The notes below the pieces were generated by a model that did not search any database, was not told where the DNA came from, and saw nothing but the letters and a program-made list of their open reading frames with translations. Position numbers and translations under genes: made by a program. DNA of 64,000 nucleotides from a virus. This document shows, in pieces, positions 33,950 to 41,631 of the stretch; position 1 is the first letter of the stretch, and each line of letters starts with the position of its first letter. The stretch is from positions 32,001 through 96,000 of the IMG/VR virus record IMGVR_UViG_3300020437_000004; one strand, given 5' to 3'.

Positions 33950-34090
33950 ATTGAGAGTTTAAGTAATAGTGCAGGGAACACTGAGTATAATATTCCTGTC
34001 TCACCCTCAGAGGCAGGTATTAGAGACTTGCTTTACATCCCCATAGGTCTCGGTTAATGGGATGTTATGTAACGAAACCGTTACATGGTG
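33950..34090 (-). ncRNA. PhotoRC-II-like structured psbA leader
   Basis: AACCGAGACCTATGGGGATGT...GTCTCTAATACCTGCCTCTGAGGGTGAGACAGG...CAGTGTTCCCTGCACT resembles the cyanophage psbA leader motif; boundaries approximate. Confidence 0.65.
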
Positions 34091-37917: not shown

Positions 37918-37990
37918 CGACTCAGGTTGGATTCGAACCAACGACCGACTGTTTAGAAGACAGTTGCTCTATCCACTGAGCTACTGAATC
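37918..37990 (-). tRNA. trnR: tRNA-Arg(UCU)
   Basis: GATTCAGTAGCTCAGTGGATAGAGCA-ACTGT-CTTCTAA-ACAGT-CGGTC-GTTGGTTCGAATCCAAC-CTGAGTC-G; anticodon TCT; no encoded CCA. Confidence 0.95.
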
Positions 37991-40525: not shown

Positions 40526-40567
40526 GACTCTCCTCATAGTTAAAGTTATTTATTTTCGTGAAAAAAA

Positions 40568-40758
40568 GGAGGGAGGTTGGGTTACTGTATACCAACAAAG
40601 AACGGGCATTACTACAGAGTAAATACGTCCTTGCCTACGACCTACTTGGTTGAGTAGTTCTGCTATTCCTAGCAGCGAGCACCACCTCTGTCGTATCACC
40701 TTATCCAGCCATATGCCAGAAAGATTATTCAGTCACTCCCAGTGTGCTGATCAGGCAC
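40568..40758 (-). ncRNA. manA-type structured RNA
   Basis: GTGCCTGATCAGCACACTGGGAGTGACTGAATAA...CTGGCATAT..CTGGATAAGGTGATACGACAGAGGTGGTGCT...CTACTCAACCAAGTAGGTCGT..GGCA...TGTAGTAATGCCCGT...GTTGGTATACAG..ACCCAACCTCCCTC resembles the manA motif of marine cyanophages; upstream of talC. Confidence 0.8.
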
Positions 40759-40760
40759 AG

Positions 40761-40823: not shown

Positions 40824-41009
40824 CTATTTTTCACCCTTTCTTGGATTCTTTAGATACCAAGAAGGTGTGCCAAACACGTTTAGTGTAACCCATTTGGCAT
40901 ACGAAACACCTCTATAACACAGTAAAGCAAACACTTTATCTGGGTCATGTTTTTCTGGATCGTATTCTGGTAGACCGTAGTCCCATTCAATTTTAACTTT
41001 TAACCGCAT
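40824..41009 (-). CDS. hypothetical with YRGV motif
   Basis: YDPEKHDPDKVFALLCYRGVSYAKWV. Confidence 0.65.
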   Translation of the reverse strand: MRLKVKIEWDYGLPEYDPEKHDPDKVFALLCYRGVSYAKWVTLNVFGTPSWYLKNPRKGEK

Positions 41010-41115
41010 CGCTGCCACCCTTTAAAAAATGGAGGAAGCGAACTTCTTGGTAGATGAAGTAGATGAATACAACAGATCCAATAGTTATCCAACTAACAGT
41101 CTGTAGTGCTTCCAT
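40993..41115 (-). CDS. 40-aa single-TM peptide (MEALQTVSWITIGSVVFIYFIYQEVRFL...)
   Basis: Hand-translated. Confidence 0.55.
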   Translation of the reverse strand: MEALQTVSWITIGSVVFIYFIYQEVRFLHFLKGGSDAVKS

Positions 41116-41119
41116 CTTT

Positions 41120-41260
41120 CTACACCACTGCTAGTTTCTTTTCGACCTTAATACCACGATACATAAGTTCATGGTTTCTTGCCTGTGCGGCTTCTGCTAG
41201 TACCTTTGCTTTGTACTGCTCAGCGTCATACTTGACGCCACGATATGTGATAGTAGTCAT
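41120..41260 (-). CDS. DUF4278-like small protein (46 aa, MTTITYRGVKYDAEQYKAKVLAEAAQARNHELMYRGIKVEKKLAVV)
   Basis: Hand-translated; two YRG motifs; AGGAG RBS. Confidence 0.8.
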   Translation of the reverse strand: MTTITYRGVKYDAEQYKAKVLAEAAQARNHELMYRGIKVEKKLAVV

Positions 41261-41317
41261 TTGTTTCTCCTAAAGTTGGTGAAGTTTCTCCTTTAACCCT
41301 TGCGGGTGATCCGAGTT

Positions 41318-41519
41318 CCCGTTCCTTTAGTCGTTTGCGTCCCAATCGCATGTGAGACCTACTGCCTCAGTCAGATGTGTCTTGTACAATTCCACGATCT
41401 CTGCCCTCTGTTGAGGTGTAAGATCGGGATGTCGGTCTGCACGGTCAAGCTTTTCAGCAATGTCCACACAAGTAATACCTGCTACAAGTATTCCGACTAG
41501 ATGTATCATGGGATGAACG
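41318..41519 (-). ncRNA. glutamine-II (Downstream-peptide)-like riboswitch, copy B, split by an ORF
   Basis: 5' half CGTTCATCCC(A) at 41519-41509; 3' half (T)GGGACGCAAACGACTAAAGGAACGGG at 41344-41318. Confidence 0.6.
41327..41509 (-). CDS. 60-aa ORF nested in the riboswitch P2 loop (ends WDAND)
   Basis: ATG abuts the P2 5' strand; the last codons and stop (TGG GAC GCA AAC GAC TAA) are the aptamer 3' strand. Confidence 0.65.
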   Translation of the reverse strand: MIHLVGILVAGITCVDIAEKLDRADRHPDLTPQQRAEIVELYKTHLTEAVGLTCDWDAND

Positions 41520-41520
41520 C

Positions 41521-41560
41521 TCCGTTCCGCGACTTACTTGCGTCCCCTAAGGGATGAACG
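41521..41560 (-). ncRNA. glutamine-riboswitch-like aptamer, copy A (compact)
   Basis: CGTTCA-TCCC-TTAG-GGGA-CGCAAGTAAGTCGC-GGAACGGA: P1 CGTTC/GAACG, P2 hairpin. Confidence 0.65.
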
Positions 41561-41631
41561 ATACAGATATGTTATCATATCCACAACTATTTAGCAAACT
41601 TAGTCATTTAACTTAACGTTAACCTTAAGTT

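What the first reader, a model, noticed from the sequence alone, without database searches (positions are those of the whole stretch)
41318..41560. Tandem glutamine-riboswitch-like aptamers, the second with a whole protein gene inside its P2 loop
Seen in sequence (minus strand): copy A is CGTTCATCCC-TTAG-GGGACGCAAGTAAGTCGC-GGAACGGA. One nt later copy B begins with the same CGTTCATCCC, but in place of a 4-nt loop comes a 60-codon ORF (41509-41327), then TGGGACGCAAACGACTAAAGGAACGGG. The ORF's start codon extends the 5' P2 strand (CCCA/TGGG), and its final codons W-D-A-N-D-stop are the aptamer's conserved 3' strand. Established: CGUUCA..CGCA..CGAC..GGAACGG is the Downstream-peptide/glutamine-II riboswitch pattern found upstream of small ORFs in marine cyanobacteria. 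Inference: aptamer folding would occlude the nested ATG, and ribosomes on the nested ORF would melt the aptamer. That gives a translation-coupled, glutamine-sensing switch for both the nested peptide and the downstream DUF4278 gene. I know of no description of an ORF-in-loop riboswitch.
Basis: partly seen in the sequence, partly recalled or inferred. Interest (0 to 1): 0.85.

Follow-up and report, generated by a model that had tools for sequence, protein, structure and literature searches.

The report
Gene nested inside double glutamine riboswitch
In this marine cyanophage, the leader of a small nitrogen-related operon is a glutamine-sensing RNA built from two interlocked sensor cores, and one of its hairpins closes around a real 60-codon gene, so sensing glutamine and translating that gene must compete on the same RNA; I found no paper describing this layout.

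Summary
On the minus strand, a compact glutamine-aptamer copy (41560-41521) is followed by a second 5' half. Next comes a 60-codon ORF (41509-41327), then the matching 3' half (41344-41318), all upstream of a DUF4278 gene.

The layout is not chance. More than 110 related cyanophage loci share it. ORF-less and ORF-bearing versions occur at both positions, and P2 pairing covaries across the ORF. The ORF tail shows absolute synonymous-site constraint: Asp is GAC in 180/180 tail codons against 49/214 in the ORF body.

Three results show two strand-swapped cores, one nested in the other:
- a covarying helix between the two 3' halves (AGUCG:CGACU);
- perfect cross-covariation of the long-range "linchpin" pair (121 loci, no exceptions, including an out-of-sample test);
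- RNAalifold on ORF-less relatives.

The segment holding the ORF's stop codon is also a covarying anti-Shine-Dalgarno for the DUF4278 gene. This fits the known glutamine ON-switch logic.

Glutamine binding and the interplay with translation are inferred, not shown. This scan has already noted the same layout on at least 78 other genomes. Reviews list such RNAs only as side-by-side tandems.

The parts
41569..41597 (-). Putative sigma-70-type promoter: -35-like TTGCTA (41597-41592), 17-nt spacer, -10-like TAACAT (41574-41569). It would start the transcript 1-4 nt before the aptamer.
   Evidence: Read. It falls below the consensus scan's cut-off. Relatives have TTGACT-17-TATAAT at the same place, most with a GTA-N8-TAC NtcA box upstream. 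The window has no such box. Inferred.
41556..41560 (-). Outer P1, 5' strand CGUUC (first 5' half). Pairs with GAACG at 41324-41320.
   Evidence: Topology from linchpin cross-covariation and RNAalifold on ORF-less relatives. The letters themselves are invariant.
41543..41554 (-). Outer P2 hairpin UCCC-UUAG-GGGA.
   Evidence: The stem covaries freely among relatives.
41535..41542 (-). Linking strand CGCAAGUA of the outer core. C41540 is the linchpin partner of G41319.
   Evidence: CGC goes with a distal GAACGG tail (100 loci) and CGG with a distal GAACGC tail (16 loci). Residue roles are from Huang 2019, PMC6698751.
41530..41534 (-). P3 5' strand AGUCG. Pairs with CGACU at 41333-41329.
   Evidence: 18 distinct strand combinations, 82% of cells paired against 53% after partner shuffling (0 of 2000 shuffles reach the observed value). 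Double changes seen: AGUCA/UGACU, AUUCG/CGAAU and, AGUCU/AGACU.
41515..41528 (-). Inner P1' hairpin GGAACGG-AG-CGUUC (middle 3' half pairing with second 5' half). G41522 is the linchpin partner of C41337. GGAG (41523-41520), a possible Shine-Dalgarno for the nested gene, lies in its loop.
   Evidence: The Shine-Dalgarno role is inferred.
41327..41509 (-). Nested gene of 60 codons (phrog_504, 'T4-like GC 430'). It has a hydrophobic N-terminus, two conserved Cys and three predicted helices. Its tail W-D-A-N-D-stop is dictated by the aptamer.
   Evidence: third-position variation in the body; 278 clusters at 50% identity.
41509..41513 (-). Inner P2' 5' strand UCCCA. Its last base is the A of the start codon.
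41340..41344 (-). Inner P2' 3' strand UGGGA (codons W and part of D). It closes a 164-nt loop.
   Evidence: in ORF-bearing units, positions 3-5 are 88.5% paired against 61% after shuffling (0/2000), with C-G, U-A, A-U and G-U types.
41334..41339 (-). Linking strand CGCAAA of the inner core.
41329..41333 (-). P3 3' strand CGACU. U41329 is the first base of the stop codon.
41319..41328 (-). J3/1 AAAG, outer P1 3' strand GAACG and linchpin G41319.
41325..41330 (-). Anti-Shine-Dalgarno CUAAAG. It overlaps the nested gene's stop codon UAA and pairs with CUUUAG at 41275-41270.
   Evidence: The helix is present in the MFE fold. Covariation: UAA goes with U in 32/32; UGA goes with C in 28, U in 24 and A in 15.
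41267..41275 (-). CUUUAG plus GGAG, the Shine-Dalgarno region of the DUF4278 gene.
41290..41312 (-). Optional extra module CGGAUC, then hairpin ACCC-GCAA-GGGU, then UAAAGGAG.
   Evidence: Present in 10 of 113 loci with covarying stems. Role unknown.
41120..41260 (-). Regulated gene: a 46-aa DUF4278 (IF17-like) protein with two YRG motifs.

Best explanation
The stretch is the 5' leader of a small phage operon. It folds as an interlocked double glutamine aptamer.

Outer core (a type-I-like three-way junction):
- P1 is formed by the first CGUUC (41560-41556) and the last GAACG (41324-41320).
- P2 is the small UCCC/GGGA hairpin.
- P3 is formed by AGUCG (41534-41530) and CGACU (41333-41329).

Inner core, sitting inside P3:
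- P1' is the hairpin GGAACGG-AG-CGUUC (41528-41515).
- P2' (UCCCA/UGGGA) closes around a real 60-codon gene.

Expression platform: the J3/1 segment CUAAAG (41330-41325) can instead pair with CUUUAG-GGAG in front of the DUF4278 gene.

Inferred mechanism: as in the Synechocystis gifB leader, glutamine stabilises the aptamer fold. That pulls the anti-Shine-Dalgarno away and turns DUF4278 translation ON. The same fold buries the nested gene's start region (GGAG in the P1' loop, AUG in P2'). Conversely, every ribosome that reads the nested gene to its stop must unwind P2', P3 and outer P1.

The nested gene is therefore expected to be translated mainly when the sensor is unfolded (low glutamine, or before the 3' half is transcribed), and its translation resets the sensor.

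Shown here: the parts, their conservation, the base-pairing topology and the coding nature of the ORF. Inferred: ligand binding, the direction of regulation and the effect of ribosomes.
For: Family letters:
- Copy A matches RF01739 at 30.0 bits and RF01704 at 26.2 bits.
- ORF-less relatives reach 35.5-40.3 bits on RF01739. The best alignments span from the first 5' half to the last 3' half.

Nested topology:
- Linchpin cross-covariation. The linking strand of unit A and the tail of unit B read C/G in 100 loci and G/C in 16 loci (Fisher 6e-8 on distinct sequences).
- Out-of-sample test. Loci chosen for an A tail of C all have CGG in unit B's linking strand (5/5).
- The side-by-side model would leave mismatches in all 21 of these loci.
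- The P3 helix between the two 3' halves covaries.
- RNAalifold on 10 ORF-less tandems predicts the nested fold unaided.
- The nested fold is 2.2 kcal/mol better than side-by-side in the window.

The aptamer is kept intact around the ORF:
- P2 covaries in ORF-bearing units as well as it does in short hairpins.
- Tail codons have zero entropy and absolute codon bias.
- Stop codons fall at 11 different offsets and more than one frame, yet the aptamer letters stay the same.

The gene is real:
- 131/132 long loops are filled by an ORF.
- Entropy by codon position runs third > first > second in the body.
- The family is phrog_504 with 278 clusters.

Expression platform:
- The anti-SD helix is in the MFE and covaries.

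Precedent:
- The glutamine riboswitch is an ON switch that melts an inhibitory duplex (PMC6212724).
- A glutamine core can be assembled from two separate strands on adding glutamine (PMC6698751).
Against: - No binding or expression data exist. The native window sequence scores below Rfam's gathering threshold for both families.
- In the nearest-neighbour model the aptamer folds lie 8-10 kcal/mol above the MFE. The whole leader's MFE is not unusual (z = -1.76).
- P1 letters are invariant, so the P1 partners are deduced from the linchpin and P3, not seen directly.
- The inner core has a much shorter J3/1 (a single C). It may not bind glutamine.
- Only 5 P2' pairs form in the window, and only the A of the AUG is paired.
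- Covariation counts are not corrected for phylogeny. My parser required at least 3 P2 pairs, so positions 1-3 are paired partly by construction.
- If terminating ribosomes unmask the DUF4278 Shine-Dalgarno, the two genes could be co-expressed rather than reciprocal.
Confidence: 0.6

Rival explanations
1. Two independent glutamine aptamers sit side by side. Each 5' half pairs with the next 3' half. The second aptamer carries the ORF in its P2 loop.
For: The order of the halves allows it. Each unit alone gives a sub-threshold Rfam hit. The unconstrained MFE pairs the first 5' half with the first 3' half. During transcription this pairing would form first. The 2022 review counts 157 glutamine doublets as pseudo-cooperative tandems (PMC9481103).
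Against: In 21 loci this model gives G.G or C.C at both linchpin positions, whereas the swapped model pairs all 121. The covarying helix between the two 3' halves would be a pseudoknot across two P1 helices. RNAalifold prefers the nested fold. The best Rfam alignments span both units.
Confidence: 0.1
2. Passenger gene. The double aptamer is a working glutamine switch for DUF4278 only. Small genes have simply settled in the one loop that tolerates insertions, as homing-endonuclease genes do in group I intron loops. There is no regulatory meaning. The switch works on ribosome-free molecules, or the nested gene is rarely translated.
For: ORF-less versions exist at both positions and look fully functional. 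At least three ORF families that BLASTP does not link occupy the loops. Phage genomes are compact.
Against: In 129 of 132 cases the AUG lies 9-11 nt after the C of CGUUCA, inside the P2 strand, with no separate leader. The stop usually lies inside the aptamer and anti-SD. All three divergent family members whose context I checked still sit behind the same aptamer junction. Physical competition between ribosomes and the fold is unavoidable if the gene is translated at all.
Confidence: 0.2
3. Relic or re-purposed RNA. The ORF-bearing copy no longer binds glutamine. Its letters are kept for another reason, such as a protein-binding site, an RNA processing signal, or only the anti-SD function.
For: Native scores are below Rfam thresholds. 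The inner core's junction is shortened. There are no binding data.
Against: Every nucleotide that Huang 2019 places at the binding site (CGUUC, the G of the linking strand, GGAACG, the linchpin) is invariant or covaries correctly across the ORF. P2 and P3 covary. The regulated gene is the classic DUF4278 partner.
Confidence: 0.07
4. The conserved 3' block is a conserved protein C-terminus (WDAND), not an RNA element.
For: W-D-A-N-D is conserved in many homologues.
Against: Asp is GAC in 180/180 tail codons against 49/214 in the body. Asn is AAC in 55/57 against 34/139. The same letters are kept when a TAG stop precedes them, when they are read in another frame, and in ORF-less loci. The rare AAC>AAT change is matched by G>A in the P3 partner. 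AlphaFold leaves the tail unstructured.
Confidence: 0.01

Closest known systems
Glutamine-I riboswitch (glnA RNA motif, Rfam RF01739), e.g. the Synechocystis gifB (IF17) leader (Klahn et al. 2018, PMC6212724)
   Same: CGUUCA ... hairpin ... CG(G/C)AAGUA ... P3 ... (G/A)AAGGAACG core. Three-way junction P1/P2/P3. Long-range linchpin pair. DUF4278 gene downstream. ON logic by releasing a sequestered ribosome-binding site.
   Different: P3 is not a small hairpin. It is formed by two distant strands and encloses a second, permuted core. One P2 holds a 60-codon gene. The native sequence is missed at Rfam's threshold.
Glutamine-II riboswitch (Downstream-peptide motif, RF01704; structure 6QN3, Huang et al. 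2019, PMC6698751)
   Same: CGCA linking strand with GGAACGG tail. Marine picocyanobacterial setting. DUF4278-type genes. A core that can be assembled from two strands and that domain-swaps in crystals.
   Different: There is no type-II P2 hairpin enclosing GGAACG as a pseudoknot loop. The score is 26.2 bits, below GA 33.
Tandem riboswitches, including the 157 glutamine doublets listed as pseudo-cooperative (Sherlock et al. 2022, PMC9481103) and the tandem glycine riboswitch
   Same: Two sensor units for the same ligand in one leader.
   Different: Here the units swap P1 strands and share P3 (one inside the other) instead of folding side by side. There is a single expression platform.
Salmonella mgtA leader with the short ORF mgtL (e.g. 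PMC6460261)
   Same: Translation of an ORF lying inside a metabolite- or ion-responsive leader decides which RNA structure forms.
   Different: From my own knowledge, mgtL is a very short proline-rich regulatory leader peptide lying between alternative stems. It is not a conserved 50-75-aa protein gene enclosed by an aptamer helix.
Group I introns with homing-endonuclease ORFs in peripheral loops (PMC3984707)
   Same: A structured functional RNA tolerates a whole gene in a terminal loop and must fold around it.
   Different: That is a ribozyme and mobile element, not a ligand sensor. The ORF is not fused to the core strands at both its start and stop.

Membership tests
Glutamine-I riboswitch (RF01739) | Covariance-model score at or above the gathering threshold (35 bits) | tested here: not met
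   The window scores 30.0 bits for copy A only and gives no hit at gathering level. ORF-less relatives with the same core letters score 30.9-40.3 bits, four of six at or above 35. The ORF-interrupted form cannot be scored by the model.
Glutamine-I riboswitch (RF01739) | P1 CGUUC/GAACG with the conserved A after it and G before GAACG | tested here: met
   Both 5' halves and both 3' halves carry these letters. They are invariant in about 120 loci.
Glutamine-I riboswitch (RF01739) | P2 hairpin directly after CGUUCA, supported by covariation | tested here: met
   Short and ORF-bearing P2 stems both covary. Positions 3-5 are 92% and 88.5% paired against about 60% after shuffling, 0/2000.
Glutamine-I riboswitch (RF01739) | Linking strand CG(G/C) whose third base pairs with the base after GAACG (linchpin) | tested here: met
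   Met only in the strand-swapped reading: 121/121 loci. Residue roles are from PMC6698751.
Glutamine-I riboswitch (RF01739) | P3 helix between the linking strand and J3/1 (G/A)AAG | tested here: met
   AGUCG:CGACU is formed by distant strands and covaries. It is not the local hairpin of the family consensus.
Glutamine-I riboswitch (RF01739) | Selective binding of L-glutamine | not testable with these tools
   Needs in-line probing or ITC.
Glutamine-II riboswitch (RF01704) | Second hairpin whose loop GGAACG forms the pseudoknot; score at or above 33 bits | tested here: not met
   26.2 bits, with non-canonical pairs in the P2 part of the alignment. No conserved enclosing hairpin was seen in relatives.
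Independent (pseudo-cooperative) tandem riboswitch | Each aptamer folds on its own strands and has its own expression platform | tested here: not met
   Cross-covariation between units. Only one anti-SD/SD platform was found.
DUF4278 / IF17-like protein (PF14105), the regulated gene | Pfam score above cut-off; YRG motifs | tested here: met
   26.6 bits against 25.3. Two YRG motifs are present. Relatives carry either this type or a 54-55-aa type that also has two YRG motifs.
phrog_504 (nested gene) | Profile match | tested here: met
   E 8.1e-15 over residues 6-60. Function unknown, no Pfam family, no structural match.

The most novel reading that the evidence does not exclude
One mRNA leader works as a translation-reset, two-output glutamine switch. 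With glutamine bound, the interlocked fold hides the nested gene's start and frees the DUF4278 ribosome-binding site. Without glutamine, the nested Cys-pair protein is made, and each of its ribosomes unfolds both sensor cores and the anti-SD at termination, forcing the RNA to sample glutamine afresh. The phage thus makes two small proteins in opposite nitrogen states, possibly an IF17-like glutamine-synthetase modulator and its counterpart. It would be the first natural riboswitch whose aptamer helices are closed around, and gated by, a translated gene.
Probability: 0.3. Interest if true: 0.92.

Novelty: new variant of a known kind. Interest (0 to 1): 0.85.

Why it matters
Riboswitch aptamers are thought of as compact, contiguous, non-coding domains. 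Glutamine tandems are catalogued as independent side-by-side units.

Here comparative data show two things:
- a strand-swapped double aptamer;
- base pairs, including the ligand-site linchpin, that are maintained across a translated 50-75-codon gene, in hundreds of abundant ocean phages.

This gives a natural system for asking several questions:
- how ribosome traffic and ligand sensing interact on one RNA;
- why standard covariance-model scans miss such elements;
- how cyanophages read host nitrogen status (NtcA boxes plus glutamine sensing) to control IF17-like proteins.

It also shows that annotated "hypothetical" phage genes can have termini dictated by RNA structure.

Tried and rejected
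- Genome-contig scan for the junction motif.
There are therefore no read-level data on transcripts or ends, and read laying was not used.
- In-silico deletion of the ORF followed by cmscan was not possible, because edited sequence cannot be submitted. Natural ORF-less relatives were used instead.
- Pfam gave only noise for the nested protein. Foldseek against PDB found nothing at E <= 0.001.
- A profile search hit a 2001-aa protein with seven weak stretches. hhalign gave 3.8% probability, so it was judged spurious.
- Profile-profile comparison of the two main nested-gene families was only suggestive (25.7% probability, Cys aligned to Cys). Common origin is left open.
- The MFE z-score of the leader is unremarkable (-1.76). 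The MFE pairs the second CGUUC with GGACGC rather than the canonical GAACG. Single-sequence folding is not used as support for the aptamer.
- The promoter scan found nothing at its cut-off upstream of the aptamer.
- Ames & Breaker 2011 and Ren et al. 2015 are not held. I could not check whether they mention inserts or swapped tandems.
- The protein-level explanation for WDAND was rejected.

Full report
**What is there**

The window is from a T4-like cyanomyovirus. Rfam finds manA RNA, PhotoRC-II and a tRNA, and nrdA, nrdB and talC flank the locus. G000 is a 124,853-base IMG/VR virus record, and the closest isolate at this locus is P-TIM40 at 77% identity.

- CGUUCA-UCCC-UUAG-GGGA-CGCAAGUAAGUCGC-GGAACGG at 41560-41522;
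- a two-base linker;
- a second CGUUCAUCCC whose next bases are AUG (41509);
- a 60-codon frame ending UGG GAC GCA AAC GAC UAA (stop at 41329-41327);
- AGGAACGGG up to 41318.

Sixty-six bases further on lies a 46-aa DUF4278 gene with two YRG motifs. At Rfam's gathering thresholds no glutamine riboswitch is reported. In E-value mode copy A matches RF01739 at 30.0 bits (GA 35) and RF01704 at 26.2 bits (GA 33).

**It is conserved, and the gene is optional**

- blastn finds the flanking blocks in 375 phage records. tblastn finds the ORF in 29.
- All nine isolate loci I fetched show the same order of parts.
- An IMG/VR scan for the junction motif gave 120 loci, about 110 of them genuine.

Layouts among these:

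| First unit / second unit | Loci |
|---|---|
| short hairpin / long loop (as in the window) | 71 |
| long / long | 24 |
| short / short | 12 |
| long / short | 6 |
| triple | 1 |

Of the 132 long loops, 131 are filled by an ORF. In 129 the AUG lies 9-11 nt after the C of CGUUCA, that is, in the P2 5' strand.

L072 has the same aptamer letters as the window and scores 30.9 bits on RF01739. Others score 34.1-40.3 bits, and the two best alignments run from the first 5' half to the last 3' half.

**The ORF is a real gene, and its end is dictated by RNA**

- The ORFs fall into phrog_504 (the window's family, 101 sequences here, 278 clusters at 50% identity in the big library), phrog_6471, and at least one more family.
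- All share a hydrophobic N-terminus and two conserved Cys about 35-40 residues apart.
- In a codon alignment of 41 distinct close homologues, entropy by codon position runs third > first > second through the body. This holds even at invariant Cys and Glu codons. All three positions have zero or near-zero entropy in W-D-A-N-D.
- Across 91 distinct ORFs, tail Asp is GAC in 180/180 against 49/214 in the body. Tail Asn is AAC in 55/57 against 34/139.
- Stops fall at 11 different offsets from the aptamer. One is a TAG inside the P2 3' strand that leaves the following GACGCAAACGACUGAAGGAACG untranslated yet unchanged. Another is a +1-frame reading in the first-unit ORFs of P-RSM4.
- The conservation of the 3' block is therefore at the RNA level.
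- AlphaFold2 predicts three helices at pLDDT 76 with an unstructured tail. No fold or family match gives a function.

**P2 closes across the gene**

In 58 distinct ORF-bearing units, P2 positions 3-5 are paired in 88.5% of cells, against 61% when partners are shuffled (0 of 2000 shuffles reach the observed value). Pair types are C-G, U-A, A-U and G-U, for example UCCCA/UGGGA, UCUAUG/CAUAGA, UCCUAUG/CAUAGGA and UCCAAUG/UAUUGGA. Short hairpins give 92%.

Caveats: my parser demanded three P2 pairs, so positions 1-3 are paired partly by construction. No count here is corrected for phylogeny.

**The two units are interlocked, not side by side**

Earlier notes of this scan and the spanning Rfam alignments led me to test cross-pairing. 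Four results agree.

1. The five bases before C-GGAACGG of the first 3' half pair with the five bases after CGCAA(A) of the second 3' half. In the window these are AGUCG 41534-41530 with CGACU 41333-41329. Among 18 distinct combinations, 82% of cells pair against 53% after shuffling (0/2000). Double changes include AGUCA/UGACU, AUUCG/CGAAU and CAACU/AGUUG.

2. In the solved glutamine riboswitches, the third base of the linking strand CG(C/G) pairs with the base after GAACG (C19:G41 in type II; type I ends in an equivalent long-range pair; PMC6698751). The Rfam consensuses show CGG...GAACGC and CGC...GAACGG. Here the first unit's linking strand covaries with the second unit's tail: C/G in 100 loci and G/C in 16 (10 distinct; Fisher 6e-8). 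The second unit's linking strand (always C) matches the first unit's tail (G, fixed by my search pattern). The single apparent exception is a parsing artefact in a P2 stem.

3. Out-of-sample prediction. I scanned for junctions whose first tail is C. All five genuine loci have CGG in the second linking strand, with CGC/G in the other pair, plus a new compensated P3 (AGUCU/AGACU). The side-by-side model leaves G.G and C.C in all 21 variant loci. The swapped model pairs all 121.

4. RNAalifold on ten ORF-less tandems predicts, unaided, an outer P1 between the first CGUUC and the last GAACG, and an inner hairpin GAACG-loop-CGUUC.

In the window the nested fold is 2.2 kcal/mol better than the side-by-side fold, though both lie 8-10 kcal/mol above the MFE.

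The picture is an outer type-I-like three-way junction whose P3 arm contains a second, permuted core. The gene sits in that inner core's P2, and hence also inside outer P1 and P3.

**Expression platform**

CUAAAG (41330-41325) comprises the last two bases of P3, J3/1 and the first G of GGAACG. It includes the nested gene's stop codon. It is complementary to CUUUAG (41275-41270), which abuts the GGAG of the DUF4278 gene. This helix is part of the MFE.

Among distinct sequences:
- UAA is always matched by U (32/32).
- UGA is matched by C (28) or U (24, wobble). Fifteen mismatches come mostly from a subgroup with a different leader.
- Fisher 3e-8, uncorrected for phylogeny.

ORF-less units carry the same U(A/G)A, so the ORF simply runs into a pre-existing aptamer triplet.

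In Synechocystis the type-I riboswitch is an ON switch, proposed to melt an inhibitory duplex on binding glutamine (PMC6212724). The same logic fits here.

**Mechanism I commit to (inferred)**

- Glutamine stabilises the interlocked fold. This withdraws the anti-SD and switches DUF4278 ON.
- The fold also buries the nested gene's initiation region (GGAG in the inner hairpin loop, AUG at the base of P2').
- Any ribosome that completes the nested gene must open P2', P3 and outer P1, and sits on the anti-SD at termination.
- The nested gene is therefore expected to be made mainly when the sensor is open. Its translation resets the sensor.
- Whether the two proteins are reciprocal or partly coupled, and whether one or both cores bind glutamine, cannot be decided here.

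**Comparison and novelty**

The core letters, junction, linchpin, regulated gene and ON logic are those of the glutamine-I/II riboswitches. Three features differ:
- P1 strands are swapped between the two units, which share P3.
- A translated gene lies inside an aptamer helix.
- Standard model scans cannot see the element.

The literature I could search lists glutamine tandems as independent pseudo-cooperative doublets (157 doublets, PMC9481103). It notes glutamine riboswitches in cyanophages only as Rfam annotations (PMC9964418). I found no description of a nested gene or a swapped fold. Ames & Breaker 2011 and Ren 2015 were not available to me.

This scan has reported the same layout on at least 78 other genomes. 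My tests of it are independent computations on this window's relatives.

**Verdict**

- Observation: confirmed.
- Interpretation: partly supported. The nested gene is right; the tandem topology is wrong; the mechanism is untested.
- Novelty: a new variant of a known riboswitch kind, of high interest.

Noticed in passing
window 41564-41579 (-) and the same place in L008-L050: The -10 box upstream of the aptamer sits in the loop of a palindrome whose arms covary between phages (GATATG..CATATC in the window; GGTCTA..TAGACC, GTGTTA..TAACAC, GGGTA..TACCC elsewhere). It could be an RNA hairpin in read-through transcripts or a DNA-level feature.
   Followed up: partly
L002-L050, about 50-60 nt upstream of the first CGTTCA: 77 of 118 distinct upstream regions carry a GTA-N8-TAC NtcA-type box next to a TTGACT-17-TATAAT promoter. 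The window and P-TIM40 lack the box. This suggests double nitrogen control (NtcA plus glutamine) in most relatives.
   Followed up: partly
window 41290-41312 (-): An extra module, CGGAUC-hairpin(GNRA loop)-UAAAGG, lies between the aptamer and the Shine-Dalgarno. It is present in 10 of 113 loci with covarying stems. In the window it is followed by a duplicated AGGAGAAAC. It may be a degenerate third unit.
   Followed up: partly
L075, L121 (first unit): CGUUCA becomes CGUUCG together with CGCA becoming UGCA. The A after P1 and the first C of the linking strand therefore change to G and U together, as expected if they form an A.C wobble-like contact.
   Followed up: no
L004 (P-RSM4) 96-520; L102: P-RSM4 and 23 metagenomic loci carry genes in both P2 loops. 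L102 is a triple unit (short, long, short).
   Followed up: partly
loci L012-L124, gene after the riboswitch: About half of the relatives regulate a 54-55-aa protein (MNTLNLI...) instead of the 44-47-aa DUF4278 type. It also has two YRG motifs. A small subgroup with a type-I-like CGG/GAACGC outer core precedes an unrelated 35-37-aa Lys/Gln-rich ORF.
   Followed up: partly
window 40824-41115 (-): Two more small ORFs follow the DUF4278 gene before the manA RNA. One is a 40-aa hydrophobic peptide (41115-40993). The other is a 64-aa protein containing YRGV (41018-40824).
   Followed up: no
window 40566-40759 (-), 33982-34077 (-), 37918-37990 (-): manA RNA (182.6 bits), PhotoRC-II RNA (64 bits) and a tRNA (anticodon not determined).
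   Followed up: no
L251, L252 (metagenome contigs): Some public gene calls of the nested-gene family are 90-100 aa long because low-coverage contigs read through the aptamer in another frame into the next gene. These are probably sequencing frameshifts, not fusions.
   Followed up: yes
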